A stretch of 64,000 bases of DNA from Escherichia coli (lineage in GTDB: Bacteria; Pseudomonadota; Gammaproteobacteria; Enterobacterales; Enterobacteriaceae), in assembly GCF_041248615.1 (NCBI RefSeq), contig NZ_CP158426.1, one strand, 5' to 3'. Of the stretch, positions 28,865-31,901 are shown piece after piece. The first letter of the stretch is position 1, and the number at the start of each line of letters is the position of its first letter. Made by a program: the position numbers and the translations under genes. The notes under the pieces were generated by a model. The model did no database searches and had not been told where the DNA came from. It saw only the letters and a program-made list of their open reading frames with translations.

Positions 28865-29134
28865 ATGAAATCCACCACAGGTATCAACCAGCAAATCAGC
28901 AAAGTGCAGTCAGCCATTATGGCGCTTAAGGCGACGAACACGGATGTACAAAGCATCACCATCAGGGGTAACAAACCTGTCATCCGCGTTTCCCGGAGTG
29001 CGCATTGCATGCGCATGCTTGAGCAGGGAAAGGCCTGTTATCTGTATACCGGACATGACCACAGGGGATATTTCCGTCAGGGCGTTTTCGAACTGCACGG
29101 CTGTCGCGTCGTGTGGCCGGAATCTTTGTGGTAA
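28865..29134 (+). CDS. Hypothetical early protein (position of Mu kil-like functions)
   Basis: 89-aa ORF immediately after B. Confidence 0.45.
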   Translation: MKSTTGINQQISKVQSAIMALKATNTDVQSITIRGNKPVIRVSRSAHCMRMLEQGKACYLYTGHDHRGYFRQGVFELHGCRVVWPESLW

Positions 29135-29161
29135 TCAGCACAACCGGAGAAATCATAAAAT

Positions 29162-29692
29162 ATGGCAAAAAGTACAAAAGGGGCAAAACGTATCAAGGCC
29201 GCAGCGGCACTCTGGGTACCAGGGACACGCGAAGAGGTCATTGAGGGAATCAGACTACTCGGTGACGCACAACGTGAACTGGTCAGGGCTGAAACAGAAA
29301 TGAATGACGCCATTGGCGATATCACCGCACGTTATGCCCCGCTCACCGAGAGCCTGAAAAAACGCATGGCCGAACTGCAGTCCGGTATCCAGACATGGTG
29401 TGAGGCGCACCGTGATGAACTGACCGGCAACGGGAAGGTGAAGTTCGCTAACCTTACCACCGGCGAGGTGCAGTGGCGAAACCGTCCGCCATCAGTCAGT
29501 ATCCGTGGGGCGGATAATGTTATTGAATTACTGAGACGTCTGGGGCTTGAGCGCTTTATTCGTGTAAAAGAGGAAATAAATAAAGACGCTATCCTGAATG
29601 AAAAAGAGGCCGTGAAAAATATTCCCGGTATTTCCATTAAAAGCGACATTGAGGATTTTTCAATAATTCCTTTTGAGCAGGATGTGCAGTAA
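29162..29692 (+). CDS. gam: Host-nuclease inhibitor Gam (Mu Gam family)
   Basis: 176-aa ORF; strong recalled match to Mu Gam (C-terminal ...IEDFSIIPFEQ, RVRPPSVSIRG motif). Confidence 0.85.
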   Translation: MAKSTKGAKRIKAAAALWVPGTREEVIEGIRLLGDAQRELVRAETEMNDAIGDITARYAPLTESLKKRMAELQSGIQTWCEAHRDELTGNGKVKFANLTTGEVQWRNRPPSVSIRGADNVIELLRRLGLERFIRVKEEINKDAILNEKEAVKNIPGISIKSDIEDFSIIPFEQDVQ

Positions 29693-29789
29693 ACACACCA
29701 CGTTAATTATTTAATAAAAACATTTTCTTTTTTATTCCGGCGTCAGCGCCGCGGGCTTCTGCACGCCGGAAACAGAGGAGAATTAAATC

Positions 29790-29984
29790 ATGATATTTAA
29801 ATGTATTCAGTGCGAGAGGGATATAACAGCCCTGCGTTTTCACAGCGCCATCGCCGTGATGTCCGGTAAATACCACATCCCTGCGGTACGCGTCACCCTG
29901 GTCTGCCCGTACTGCAGCCAGCATTTTTCGGCAGACGTGCCCGTCATGGAATTCTCCCGCCCTGACAGGGAGGACTCGCAATGA
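29790..29984 (+). CDS. Small zinc-ribbon protein
   Basis: 64-aa ORF with CxxC...CPYC pairs; RBS aggag; follows an AT-rich promoter-like gap. Confidence 0.5.
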   Translation: MIFKCIQCERDITALRFHSAIAVMSGKYHIPAVRVTLVCPYCSQHFSADVPVMEFSRPDREDSQ

Positions 29985-30253
29985 TTACCCCACAGGAAGC
30001 ACGACAGCGCACCCGAACCCTTGTTGAACACTATGTCAACGAGTGTGAATGCCGCGACCTCACCGATGTGAAGCACGTCCTGACGGCGCTAATCAGCATG
30101 ACCACACAGGCCATTGTGGCAACCAACGGAAAGGCGGCTGCCCTGCAGGTACTGATGAACACACTCACCCACACGGCAGAGCATGAGGTGCCGTACCGGA
30201 TGGAAACCACTGCAGAAGGCGGCCTGCACATCACCGTCAGCCGGAAGCACTGA
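29981..30253 (+). CDS. Hypothetical early protein
   Basis: 90-aa ORF coupled to the previous gene. Confidence 0.45.
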   Translation: MITPQEARQRTRTLVEHYVNECECRDLTDVKHVLTALISMTTQAIVATNGKAAALQVLMNTLTHTAEHEVPYRMETTAEGGLHITVSRKH

Positions 30254-30262
30254 GGGCGCGGC

Positions 30263-30559
30263 ATGACACGGAACACCATACTCACCCGCACCGCCCTCTA
30301 CCGTCTGGCCCTGCAGCGTTTCGGGCCGGACGCACAGGCCCTGAAACTGACAGAAGAGGCCGCTGAACTGGCGGCCAGTGCTGCCCGCAATCTGAACGGA
30401 CAGGGCAGCGAAAGCGACCTCGCGGCAGAGCTGGCAGACGTGGAAATCATGACAGAGCAATTGCGCCTTCAGGGGATGGACCGGCTGATTGACTTCCACA
30501 AACAGAAAAAACTGGAACGTCTGGCTGCACGACTGGGCGTGATTTACACGAACGAGTAA
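30263..30559 (+). CDS. MazG-like nucleotide pyrophosphohydrolase domain protein
   Basis: 98-aa ORF; helical EExxE-type segment (LTEEAAELAASAARNL...ELADVEIM) typical of small MazG-like proteins. Confidence 0.55.
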   Translation: MTRNTILTRTALYRLALQRFGPDAQALKLTEEAAELAASAARNLNGQGSESDLAAELADVEIMTEQLRLQGMDRLIDFHKQKKLERLAARLGVIYTNE

Positions 30560-30573
30560 CCGGGAGGCATTCA

Positions 30574-30789
30574 ATGGCTGACATACTCAGGGAAATCACC
30601 GCATGGATACTGATTCTTACTGGCCTGGCGACATGCCTCAGTGCGGGGGCAGCCCTGGCTGCCCTGCTGATGCACATAACAACACAGTGGTTATGGGAAA
30701 AGCTTAAAGCAGCATACAGCCTGAAAGAGCTGTCCGACGCTGTCCGGGCATGGAAACGGCAGAAAAATACCGGAGATACAGAACAATGA
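30574..30789 (+). CDS. Small membrane protein
   Basis: 71-aa ORF with one hydrophobic helix. Confidence 0.45.
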   Translation: MADILREITAWILILTGLATCLSAGAALAALLMHITTQWLWEKLKAAYSLKELSDAVRAWKRQKNTGDTEQ

Positions 30790-31469
30790 CAGACCAGAAT
30801 AAACACATTGAGAAACTGAAAAAGTTGCTGGCGCTGGCCGCATCCGGCAACCCGCACGAGGCCGCTCTGGCACTGCGCCGAGCCCGTAAACTGATGGATG
30901 TTCACGGCATCACACATTCCGACATTGCTATGAGTGATATTGATGAAACCATCAGTCACTACTGGCCGACAGGCAGTCTCCGTCCACCGCGCTACATGCC
31001 AGGCCTGATGAACATCATCCGCGAGGTATTTGGTGTTAACTCCATCATTCACCCCGGCACGCATCCGTCTGTGGGGTTCTACGGCAACCGGGAACGTGCG
31101 GCACTGGCTGTATACACCTGGGAAGTGCTGGCCCGTCAGCTGAAAAAGGCGCGTCAGCAGTATATCAGTGCACAGAACAAAAGAATAAAAACCGCCACCC
31201 GCACCAGCCGTGGAGACCAGTTTGCCGAAGGCTGGGTGCTGGCCGTTATCAGTGAAATACAGTCCTTTGCCCTGACCGATGATGAGCGTGAACTGATGCA
31301 GCAGTGGCTGGAACATAAATACCCGCAGACGCAAACCACCAGGGCGCGTAAACCGGGAAGAAGCCGCAATGGCGACGCCTCGCGCTATGCGGGGTTTCGT
31401 GAAGGGCAGAACGTCAGACTGCACCGCCCGGTCAGTGGGCAGGAACAACAGAAACTGGAGGCCAGATGA
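30786..31469 (+). CDS. DUF2786-like phage protein
   Basis: Start at MTDQNKHIEKLKKLLALA (ATG 30786, RBS ggaga); family common in enterobacterial prophage early regions. Confidence 0.55.
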   Translation: MTDQNKHIEKLKKLLALAASGNPHEAALALRRARKLMDVHGITHSDIAMSDIDETISHYWPTGSLRPPRYMPGLMNIIREVFGVNSIIHPGTHPSVGFYGNRERAALAVYTWEVLARQLKKARQQYISAQNKRIKTATRTSRGDQFAEGWVLAVISEIQSFALTDDERELMQQWLEHKYPQTQTTRARKPGRSRNGDASRYAGFREGQNVRLHRPVSGQEQQKLEAR

Positions 31470-31696
31470 TTACGCTATCAGGTAACAGCCGGAAATTAAA
31501 AGCCTGCCGAATATCTGCCAGATACCTTTTTGCCCGCGCCTTTTTTAAGAACGTCAGGCCGGGGATCACAATTGGTGTTATTGCCGGACGCGAACAGGTT
31601 GAAAAATACATGTCAGGTGCATGGTGGAATAACGACCCTGTCATTGCTGCCCGTAATATTCATATCAGTTGGGGGGATATTCAGAATGACTGCTGA
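31466..31696 (+). CDS. Hypothetical early protein
   Basis: 76-aa ORF coupled to neighbours. Confidence 0.4.
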   Translation: MITLSGNSRKLKACRISARYLFARAFFKNVRPGITIGVIAGREQVEKYMSGAWWNNDPVIAARNIHISWGDIQNDC

Positions 31697-31901
31697 ATCT
31701 GTTGTATGTGCCCTGTTCTGGTATTGTTTTGTCGGTTGGTGTACTGCTGAACTGCACCGCCTTTCAGGGTTTTATTCACGTTACAGTGGTGCCAGCTACT
31801 GGATTAGCTGGTCGGTGATGTTCCTGTGCTGGCCTGTGGCGCTTCCTTTATATGTCGATTATATCGGTGGCGCAGGTAAAAGGAGCAACGATGATGACTA
31901 A
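31686..31901 (+). CDS. Small membrane protein
   Basis: Start at ATG 31686 (MTAESVV...); two hydrophobic helices. Confidence 0.45.
   Translation: MTAESVVCALFWYCFVGWCTAELHRLSGFYSRYSGASYWISWSVMFLCWPVALPLYVDYIGGAGKRSNDDD

What the first reader, a model, noticed from the sequence alone, without database searches (positions are those of the whole stretch)
28865..31901. Block of small early genes of unknown function in the Mu-like prophage
Apart from gam, a MazG-like protein and a DUF2786-like protein, the region holds a zinc-ribbon protein (CxxC...CPYC), two small membrane proteins and several 70-90-aa ORFs with no recognisable domains. The semi-essential early region of transposable phages is where host-takeover and anti-defence functions are usually encoded, so these are candidates for uncharacterised inhibitors.
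Basis: inference. Interest (0 to 1): 0.4.

Follow-up and report, generated by a model that had tools for sequence, protein, structure and literature searches.

The report
Early accessory genes of Mu-like prophage
This is the ordinary accessory part of the early operon of a common E. coli Mu-like (BcepMu-type) prophage: nine real small genes, one of which proves to be a distant relative of phage Mu's host-killing gene kil, with no evidence for or against new anti-defence inhibitors.

Summary
Window 28865-31901 holds nine tightly packed + strand genes between the transposition ATPase gene B and gemA/mor. They belong to a BcepMu-type transposable prophage that is 98.5% identical to Escherichia phage PhiKM. 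The block occurs in 632 of 5,426 complete E. coli genomes.

All nine genes evolve under purifying selection (dN/dS 0.03-0.47). Diverged relatives keep a backbone: g1, then Gam or DUF3164, Zn-ribbon g3, MazG-like g5, DUF2786/DUF7168 g7 and two-TM g9. Genes g4, g6 and g8 are patchy inserts.

- **g1:** a remote homologue and positional equivalent of Mu Kil (hhalign probability 83-87%; controls 1.7% or less).
- **g7:** occurs in transposable phages of Pseudomonas, Ralstonia and Shewanella. It has a weak KH-like alpha/beta core and a conserved basic helix.
- **Noncoding element:** the 97-nt gap after gam holds a hairpin element shared with Mu. It is better conserved than the adjacent coding DNA.

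Nothing matched a known defence family, and no anti-defence library was available, so the anti-defence reading stays pure inference. Verdict: a known kind of region, with a few modest new annotations.

The parts
28865..29134 (+). g1, 89 aa: Kil-like protein (phrog_2041). It is the gene immediately after the B/ExeA-type ATPase gene.
   Evidence: The family profile A2 against Mu Kil gives hhalign probability 87%, P 4e-6 over 70 columns. Against the Kil alignment A3 it gives 83%. Of 26 control proteins, only BcepMu gp07, which is also the gene after B, scores (62%); the rest are at or below 1.7%. The A2 HMM searched against 19,838 ORFs finds Kil homologues as the only non-family hits besides one positional equivalent. 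Two of 41 family members hit Kil PHROGs. The AF2 model has pLDDT 89.6. dN/dS is 0.23.
29162..29692 (+). gam: Mu Gam-family DNA-end-binding protein and host-nuclease inhibitor.
   Evidence: PF07352, E 1e-40, full length. phrog_491, E 5.5e-73. 62% identical to Mu Gam. dN/dS is 0.03.
29697..29793 (+). Conserved noncoding element in the gam-g3 gap. In order: an AT-rich box, a U/C-rich tract, a 33-nt GC hairpin (29737-29769), AAACAG, and the Shine-Dalgarno sequence of g3.
   Evidence: The RNA fold is -29.5 kcal/mol, z -3.4, with the U-tract paired to GAGGAG. Mu has the same architecture after gam at 6327-6427. Covariance model R1 finds one copy per phage. Pair 48-81 is UA in 12 sequences and CG in 7. 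The element is 90-96% identical where the neighbouring g3 CDS is about 70%. No Rfam family matches.
29790..29984 (+). g3, 64 aa: zinc-ribbon protein (phrog_3401), a backbone gene.
   Evidence: C5, C8, C39 and C42 are invariant. It is present in 32 of 37 diverged loci. dN/dS is 0.10-0.18. There is no significant relation to Mu Com or other Mu small proteins.
29981..30253 (+). g4, 90 aa: unknown function (phrog_3691), a variable insert.
   Evidence: Found in only 7 of 37 diverged loci. dN/dS is 0.38-0.45. No Pfam, NCBIfam or PDB match.
30263..30559 (+). g5, 98 aa: MazG-like all-alpha NTP pyrophosphohydrolase (probable), a backbone gene.
   Evidence: phrog_2245, E 2.8e-34. RefSeq names a 99% identical allele 'nucleoside triphosphate pyrophosphohydrolase family protein'. 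The EExxE...ExxD motif is conserved. dN/dS is 0.14. The Pfam match is below threshold and there is no PDB hit.
30574..30789 (+). g6, 71 aa: single-pass membrane protein (phrog_3958), found only in the close relatives.
   Evidence: One TM helix, KD19 2.02, around residues 8-35. It is absent from all diverged loci. dN/dS is 0.39.
30786..31469 (+). g7, 227 aa: DUF2786 + DUF7168 protein (phrog_421), a backbone gene.
31466..31696 (+). g8, 76 aa: basic protein of unknown function (phrog_3681), a variable insert.
   Evidence: Present in close relatives and in a few of the 65%-identity group. dN/dS is 0.47 on few alleles. No domain match.
31686..31901 (+). g9, 71 aa: small protein with two hydrophobic segments (phrog_6436), a backbone gene with two allelic types.
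   Evidence: Two Wimley-White hydrophobic segments. It is present in 28 of 37 diverged loci. Alleles of 97% and 40% identity occur among otherwise near-identical prophages.

Best explanation
The block is the accessory ('semi-essential') stretch of the early operon of a BcepMu-type transposable prophage of E. coli. All nine ORFs are real genes.

Inferred: they are read through from the early promoter together with the transposase (A) and ATPase (B) genes, because they are translationally coupled and no promoter or terminator lies inside the block.

It is a mosaic. Related phages keep a backbone: a Kil-like protein, then Gam or DUF3164, a Zn-ribbon protein, a MazG-like NTP pyrophosphohydrolase, a DUF2786/DUF7168 protein and a two-TM protein. 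Exchangeable inserts (g4, g6, g8) sit between these.

Inferred mechanism after induction or infection:
- The Kil-like protein arrests host growth and morphogenesis, as Mu Kil does.
- Gam caps DNA ends against RecBCD.
- The MazG-like enzyme hydrolyses some NTP or dNTP species.
- The basic DUF2786/DUF7168 protein binds nucleic acid.

Together these condition the cell for replicative transposition. A conserved hairpin element after gam probably modulates processing or translation of the distal genes.
For: **Identity and spread.** The block is 100% identical to E. coli NZ_LT599825.1 and 98.5% to phage PhiKM (genus Bcepmuvirus). It occurs in 632 of 5,426 E. coli genomes.

**Real genes.** The genes are coupled or overlapping, and pN < pS holds for all nine.

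**Operon.** No promoter- or terminator-like excess lies in the block; the one strong terminator lies beyond mor at 32989-33021.

**Mosaic and backbone.** See the tblastn matrix and ORF clustering over 79 loci.

**Individual genes.**
- Gam.
- g1 and Kil. Mu kil gives spherical cells and killing (PMC3961180).
- MazG-like. Pyrophosphatases recur in this slot: BcepMu gp06 and a PF04447 gene in relatives.
- g7 fold, basic patch and wide phage distribution.
- Hairpin element.
Against: - No expression data and no phenotype are available.
- The g1-Kil link is remote (20% identity). g1 itself does not reach Kil PHROGs, and structure search did not retrieve Kil.
- MazG membership rests on one PHROG and a motif; Pfam is sub-threshold.
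- g3, g4, g6, g8 and g9 have no functional lead at all.
- None of the unknowns shares a PHROG with the Mu or BcepMu early genes, so functional transfer from Mu is limited.
Confidence: 0.6

Rival explanations
1. Anti-defence island. Beyond Gam, one or more of the small proteins (most plausibly the patchy g4, g6 or g8, or the MazG-like g5 acting on a nucleotide signal or pool) is a dedicated inhibitor of a bacterial immune system.
For: - Position in the early, first-expressed region.
- Mosaic, insert-like distribution and relaxed constraint of g4, g6 and g8 (dN/dS 0.38-0.47).
- Small size and lack of any known domain.
- Recurrent nucleotide pyrophosphatases in this slot.
Against: - No similarity to any characterised anti-defence or anti-restriction family in PHROGs, nor to PDB entries.
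- The backbone genes are conserved across phages of different host genera, unlike typical host-specific counter-defence genes.
- No anti-defence profile library was available, so this was not properly tested.
Confidence: 0.25
2. Lysogen-benefit morons. The two membrane proteins (g6, g9) and perhaps others are expressed from the prophage and serve superinfection exclusion or another host-side function, rather than the lytic programme.
For: - Small membrane proteins are typical exclusion factors.
- g9 has two sharply different alleles among near-identical prophages, as expected for a gene under diversifying pressure.
- g6 is confined to the E. coli lineage.
Against: - They lie inside a translationally coupled operon, downstream of the repressor-controlled early promoter.
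- They have no promoter-like site of their own.
- g9 overlaps both g8 and gemA.
Confidence: 0.1
3. Some of the small ORFs (g4, g6, g8) are not functional genes but decaying or chance reading frames in a domesticated prophage.
For: They have the highest dN/dS in the block (0.38-0.47, on few alleles) and a narrow distribution.
Against: - All keep intact frames across dozens of distinct alleles.
- They have Shine-Dalgarno sequences and coupled starts.
- Each belongs to a PHROG with near full-length matches (E 1e-41 to 1e-55).
- g4 homologues at 39-42% identity keep invariant residues.
Confidence: 0.04

Closest known systems
Semi-essential early (SE) region of phage Mu (kil, gp6-gp9, gam, gp11-gp14, gp54; AF083977 4315-8127)
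   Same: - Same position between B and gemA/mor, and the same operon logic.
- Gam is 62% identical.
- The first gene after B is Kil or Kil-like.
- The same hairpin element follows gam.
   Different: None of the other seven proteins shares a PHROG or a detectable profile relation with Mu gp6-gp14/gp54. The transposase and B belong to the BcepMu (rve/ExeA) type. The early arm points towards the right end, with the late genes divergent.
BcepMu early arm gp01-gp08 (AY539836)
   Same: - Same genus-level architecture: ExeA-type B, then a small protein (gp07, weakly related to g1, hhalign 62%).
- A pyrophosphatase (gp06) and gemA and mor homologues at 43-54% identity.
   Different: BcepMu carries an SSB-like gp03, an HU-like gp04 and gp05 (phrog_846) where this phage has Gam, g3, g4, g6-g9. 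BcepMu has no DUF2786 protein, no Gam and no hairpin element.
Early regions of Pseudomonas transposable phages (JBD24/D3112-like; B3-like) and Shewanella MuM16-2
   Same: They carry a full-length DUF2786/DUF7168 homologue of g7 (34-37% identity) in the early arm.
   Different: The other small genes were not detected there. The function of the Pseudomonas homologue is also annotated as hypothetical.
MazG / all-alpha NTP pyrophosphohydrolase superfamily
   Same: A single roughly 100-aa helical domain with an EExxE...ExxD acidic motif, plus the PHROG annotation.
   Different: It is below Pfam thresholds (PRA-PH E 0.047, no PF03819 hit). It has no PDB relative by profile. The substrate is unknown.

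Membership tests
Mu Kil (phrog_2743 / PF26843) | The gene lies immediately downstream of the transposition ATPase gene B in the early operon. | tested here: met
   g1 starts 3 nt after the B stop codon. Mu kil starts 19 nt after B.
Mu Kil (phrog_2743 / PF26843) | The sequence matches the family model. | tested here: inconclusive
   g1 itself hits no Kil PHROG at E of 0.01 or better, and its homologues carry no precomputed Pfam domain, whereas Kil homologues carry PF26843. Against that, profile-profile probability is 83-87% over the full length with clean controls. Kil proteins, together with one positional equivalent (L083 +3914), are the only non-family HMM hits among 19,838 sequences. Two of 41 family members reach Kil PHROGs.
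Mu Kil (phrog_2743 / PF26843) | Expression kills the host or gives spherical cells. | not testable with these tools
   The phenotype is known only for Mu kil (PMC3961180).
Mu Gam (PF07352) | Full-length match above the Pfam gathering score. | tested here: met
   139.6 bits against a cut-off of 28.3, covering profile positions 1-148 of 149.
MazG-like NTP pyrophosphohydrolase | Acidic metal-binding motif ExxE-x(12-28)-ExxD. | tested here: met
   E32-A-A-E35 ... E56-L-A-D59. E31, E35 and D59 are invariant, and E32 and E56 at least 90% conserved, in A5.
MazG-like NTP pyrophosphohydrolase | Match to the curated MazG or PRA-PH model above threshold. | tested here: not met
   Only PRA-PH at E 0.047, 14.5 bits against a cut-off of 21.3. 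TIGR03188 at E 0.035. phrog_2245 does match, E 2.8e-34.
MazG-like NTP pyrophosphohydrolase | Four-helix-bundle fold and hydrolysis of NTPs or dNTPs. | not tested
DUF2786 + DUF7168 | Both Pfam domains score above the gathering score, in N-to-C order. | tested here: met
   PF10979 at 42.9 bits (cut-off 23.9) covers residues 20-56 of the 239-aa ORF scanned, that is residues 8-44 of the 227-aa g7. PF23771 at 87.7 bits (cut-off 25.5) covers ORF residues 58-201, g7 residues 46-189.
KH domain (type I) | A beta-alpha-alpha-beta-beta-alpha fold with a GXXG loop. | tested here: not met
Com-type zinc-finger translational activator (Mu Com) | Sequence relation beyond the CxxC knuckles. | tested here: not met
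   hhalign of the g3 family against Com gives probability 17.5% over 17 columns. No Pfam Com hit.
Known defence or anti-defence proteins | Match to a curated model. | tested here: not met
   PADLOC gave no hits, and no anti-restriction or anti-defence PHROG matched. A dedicated anti-defence library was not available.

The most novel reading that the evidence does not exclude
Two readings remain open.

(a) The roughly 97-nt element after gam, shared by Mu and this otherwise unrelated BcepMu-type phage lineage, is an undescribed cis-regulatory RNA. It would act as a processing or translational gate that hides the Shine-Dalgarno sequence of the next gene, controlling expression of the distal early genes.

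(b) One of the patchy small proteins (g4, g6 or g8) is a new anti-defence inhibitor.
Probability: 0.25. Interest if true: 0.5.

Novelty: new member of a known kind. Interest (0 to 1): 0.3.

Why it matters
This prophage type sits in about one in nine complete E. coli genomes, yet seven of the nine genes in this block are annotated 'hypothetical'.

- **Kil-like assignment.** It gives one of them a testable phenotype: killing or rounding of the host. It also extends the Kil family beyond Mu-type phages to BcepMu-type ones, which helps to find Kil's still unknown target.
- **Backbone versus inserts.** Separating the conserved backbone from the exchangeable inserts tells experimenters which ORFs to screen first for counter-defence (g4, g6, g8) and which for core transposition biology (g3, g5, g7, g9).
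- **Hairpin element.** The conserved post-gam hairpin is a cheap, testable regulatory lead in phage Mu itself.

Tried and rejected
1. **PDB sequence and profile searches.** Searches for g1, g3, g4, g5 and g7 gave only chance-level hits.
2. **NCBIfam, PADLOC and Rfam.** None gave a hit.
3. **g1 fold.**
   - The family conserves no acidic catalytic residues, so an enzymatic NTase was rejected.
   - BFVD returned only its own family.
4. **Giant adhesin hits to g1.** Two giant repeat adhesins matched g1 in the representative search (E 4e-63 from 41 weak stretches). They are cadherin/DUF11-type repeat proteins, and I treat the match as a repeat artefact.
5. **g7 against Mu gp11 and gp12.** No relation.
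6. **g3, g4, g8 and g9 families against Mu and BcepMu proteins.** Comparison with all small early proteins of Mu and BcepMu, and with Com, found only CxxC-knuckle matches.
7. **g5 family against other pyrophosphatases.** hhalign against BcepMu gp06 and the PF04447 protein aligned only the short ELAD and EExxE motifs.
8. **Degenerate DNA pattern scan.** Only already known relatives were recovered.
9. **Literature.** Nothing functional exists on DUF2786 or DUF7168.
10. **Intrinsic terminator.** The post-gam hairpin was rejected as a terminator on either strand. The T-run lies 5' of the stem on the + strand, and an A-run follows the stem on the - strand.
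Full report
**Observation**

The six-frame ORF list and the RefSeq annotation of the 100%-identical chromosome NZ_LT599825.1 agree. Window 28865-31901 carries nine + strand genes packed between the transposition ATPase gene (27696-28862, 'ExeA family') and gemA/gp16 (31894-32343) and mor (32315-32701).

- g1: 28865-29134
- gam: 29162-29692
- g3: 29790-29984
- g4: 29981-30253
- g5: 30263-30559
- g6: 30574-30789
- g7: 30786-31469
- g8: 31466-31696
- g9: 31686-31901

- Gam: PF07352, E 1e-40.
- A MazG-like protein: phrog_2245, E 2.8e-34, with an EExxE...ExxD motif conserved in the family. Pfam is only sub-threshold.
- A DUF2786 protein that also carries DUF7168.
- A CxxC...CPYC zinc ribbon with all four cysteines invariant.
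- Two small hydrophobic proteins.
- Three 76-90-aa ORFs without Pfam or NCBIfam domains.

**Are they genes?**

Starts and stops are coupled or overlapping, and most starts have a Shine-Dalgarno sequence.

I fetched 79 related loci from IMG/VR with g7 and with a g7 family alignment. I then counted synonymous and non-synonymous differences against every distinct allele. All nine genes have pN < pS:

| Gene | dN/dS |
|---|---|
| Gam | 0.03 |
| g3 | 0.10-0.18 |
| g7 | 0.12 |
| g5 | 0.14 |
| g1 | 0.23 |
| g9 | 0.26-0.42 |
| g4 | 0.38-0.45 |
| g6 | 0.39 |
| g8 | 0.47 |

All nine also give near full-length PHROG matches. The long antisense ORF 30447-31448 finds no support in these data. The same holds for the antisense ORF that the PhiKM record annotates in place of g3.

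**Context**

- The block is 98.5% identical to Escherichia phage PhiKM, genus Bcepmuvirus.
- It occurs in 632 of 5,426 complete E. coli genomes.
- The prophage has the BcepMu layout. The repressor is at 23651-24043 (-). An early arm runs rightwards through A, B, this block, gemA and mor. Lysis and structural genes run leftwards off the window.
- No promoter- or terminator-like excess lies inside the block. The only strong terminator is at 32989-33021, beyond mor.

I therefore infer, but have not shown, co-transcription from the early promoter, as in Mu.

**Mosaic structure**

A tblastn matrix and clustering of all ORFs between B and gemA in 37 loci show a conserved backbone:

- g1;
- either Gam or a 203-aa DUF3164 protein in the same slot;
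- g3;
- g5;
- g7;
- g9.

By contrast, g4 occurs in 7 of 37 loci. g6 occurs only in the close E. coli relatives. g8 occurs in a few. Other inserts appear in relatives, among them a PF04447 dATP/dGTP pyrophosphohydrolase.

None of the unknown proteins shares a PHROG with Mu gp5-gp14/gp54 or with BcepMu gp03-07 and gp10-13. BcepMu gp06 is, however, again a pyrophosphatase.

**g1 is Kil-like**

A representative-library search gave about 50 clusters of 80-110-aa proteins. From these I built the 41-sequence alignment A2.

- A2 against Mu Kil gives hhalign probability 87%, P 4e-6, over 70 columns. That covers nearly the whole of both proteins, with RPxIxI and GC(R/Q)(V/I)(V/I)W aligned.
- Against an alignment of Kil homologues it gives 83%.
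- In a control against 26 other small early proteins of Mu, BcepMu and this window, only BcepMu gp07 scored (62%). gp07 is also the gene right after B. All others were at or below 1.7%.
Nothing unrelated came in between.
- Two of 41 family members reach the Kil PHROGs.

Formal membership is not met. g1 itself misses the Kil models, and its homologues lack the PF26843 tag that Kil homologues carry. I rate remote homology at about 0.8.

Mu kil kills the host and produces spherical cells, and its target is unknown (PMC3961180).

**g7**

- The AF2 model is confident (pLDDT 86.5, pTM 0.77).
- The most conserved stretch is a basic helix region (R117, R123, K132, R133, K135, R142), and the predicted pI is 10.1. 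Nucleic-acid binding is a reasonable inference.
- Homologues sit in the early arms of Pseudomonas JBD24/D3112-like and B3-like phages, Ralstonia and Shewanella transposable phages, and a few larger siphoviruses (178 records).
- This argues for a general phage function rather than host-specific counter-defence.
- No literature exists on the family's function.

**g3, g4, g5, g6, g8 and g9**

Profile searches of the PDB gave nothing beyond zinc-knuckle matches. Comparison with every small early protein of Mu and BcepMu, and with Com, was equally empty. These genes remain without a functional lead, apart from g5's pyrophosphohydrolase motif.

**A noncoding element inside the block**

The 97-nt gap between gam and g3 folds into a strong structure: -29.5 kcal/mol, z -3.4. 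A U/C-rich tract pairs with the g3 Shine-Dalgarno sequence around a 33-nt GC hairpin.

- Mu has the same architecture in the 98-nt gap after its gam, with a different hairpin sequence.
- A covariance model built from 21 sequences finds exactly one copy per phage. These are the window at 29697-29793, Mu at 6327-6427, and two loci not used in training. In one of those two, the downstream gene is not g3.
- It finds none in BcepMu or in the distant relatives.
- The element is also present where DUF3164 replaces Gam.
- It is 90-96% identical in relatives whose adjacent g3 coding DNA is about 70% identical.
- One stem pair switches UA to CG between subgroups.
- The Shine-Dalgarno-masking outer stem appears in the MFE fold of 5 of 7 representatives.
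- It is not a terminator on either strand. It has no Rfam match and is unannotated in 620 E. coli genomes.

I suggest an mRNA processing, stability or translational gate. This is inference only.

**Verdict**

The finding is accurate but describes an ordinary feature: the accessory early region of a common, already sequenced prophage type.

The anti-defence interpretation is neither supported nor excluded. The data shift it away from the conserved backbone and towards the three patchy inserts.

New here are:
- the Kil-like assignment of g1;
- the partition into backbone and inserts;
- the weak KH-like, basic character of the DUF2786/DUF7168 protein;
- the conserved post-gam RNA element shared with Mu.

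Interest 0.3; novelty: new member of a known kind.

Noticed in passing
window 29697-29793 (hairpin 29737-29769); Mu L004 6327-6427: A conserved noncoding element follows the gam/DUF3164 slot. It consists of an AT-rich box, a U/C tract, a GC hairpin, AAACAG, and then the Shine-Dalgarno sequence of the next gene. It is shared with phage Mu, occurs once per phage, and is better conserved than the neighbouring coding DNA. It is unannotated and has no Rfam match.
   Followed up: partly
loci L046-L065 and others, the slot equivalent to window 29162-29692: In many relatives Gam is replaced at the same position by a 203-aa DUF3164 protein (PF11363, E 2e-66). The flanking g1, the hairpin element and g3 stay in place.
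   Followed up: partly
window 32720-32962, 32989-33021, 33028-33681: Three features lie beyond mor:
- an unannotated 80-aa ORF;
- a strong 14-bp-stem terminator;
- a 217-aa membrane protein (RefSeq start 33058), kept after mor in many relatives at 58-95% identity.

The membrane protein is probably the last gene of the prophage and a possible moron or exclusion gene.
   Followed up: partly
window about 34030-34863: The right end of the prophage appears to lie near 34030 (...CCCCCTTCA; compare the BcepMu left end, TGAAGAGAGG). It abuts a YadA-like adhesin pseudogene (34051-34863, - strand, missing its C-terminus), which the prophage seems to have interrupted. The left end lies outside the window, so no target duplication could be checked.
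   Followed up: partly
L001 (PhiKM) 6839-7060, equivalent to window 29703-29924 (-): The PhiKM GenBank record annotates an antisense 'hypothetical protein' here. It omits the conserved zinc-ribbon gene g3 on the + strand.
   Followed up: yes
window 31686-31901 (g9); junction near 31727: Among otherwise 96-99% identical prophages, g9 exists as two alleles, about 97% and about 40% identical. The PhiKM megablast match ends at 31727. This is a recombination junction inside the early operon.
   Followed up: no
L062 5507-5995; L005 (BcepMu) 2671-3105 (-): Different nucleotide pyrophosphohydrolases recur in the early arm of this phage group:
- the g5 family;
- a PF04447 dATP/dGTP pyrophosphohydrolase in relatives;
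- BcepMu gp06.

This suggests selection for the activity rather than for one particular gene.
   Followed up: partly
P0085 (4,728 aa) and P0103 (1,901 aa): Two giant cadherin/DUF11-type repeat adhesins matched residues 18-66 of g1 through many weak stretches (summed E 4e-63). This is probably a repeat-amplified artefact rather than homology.
   Followed up: partly
window 35643-37460 and onwards: Downstream of the Mu-like prophage lie remnants of a lambdoid prophage: a DUF4376 tail-fibre assembly-like gene, a tail fibre gene, Ail/Lom, and a truncated DUF3672 gene. An IS1414 transposase follows (annotation of L002).
   Followed up: no
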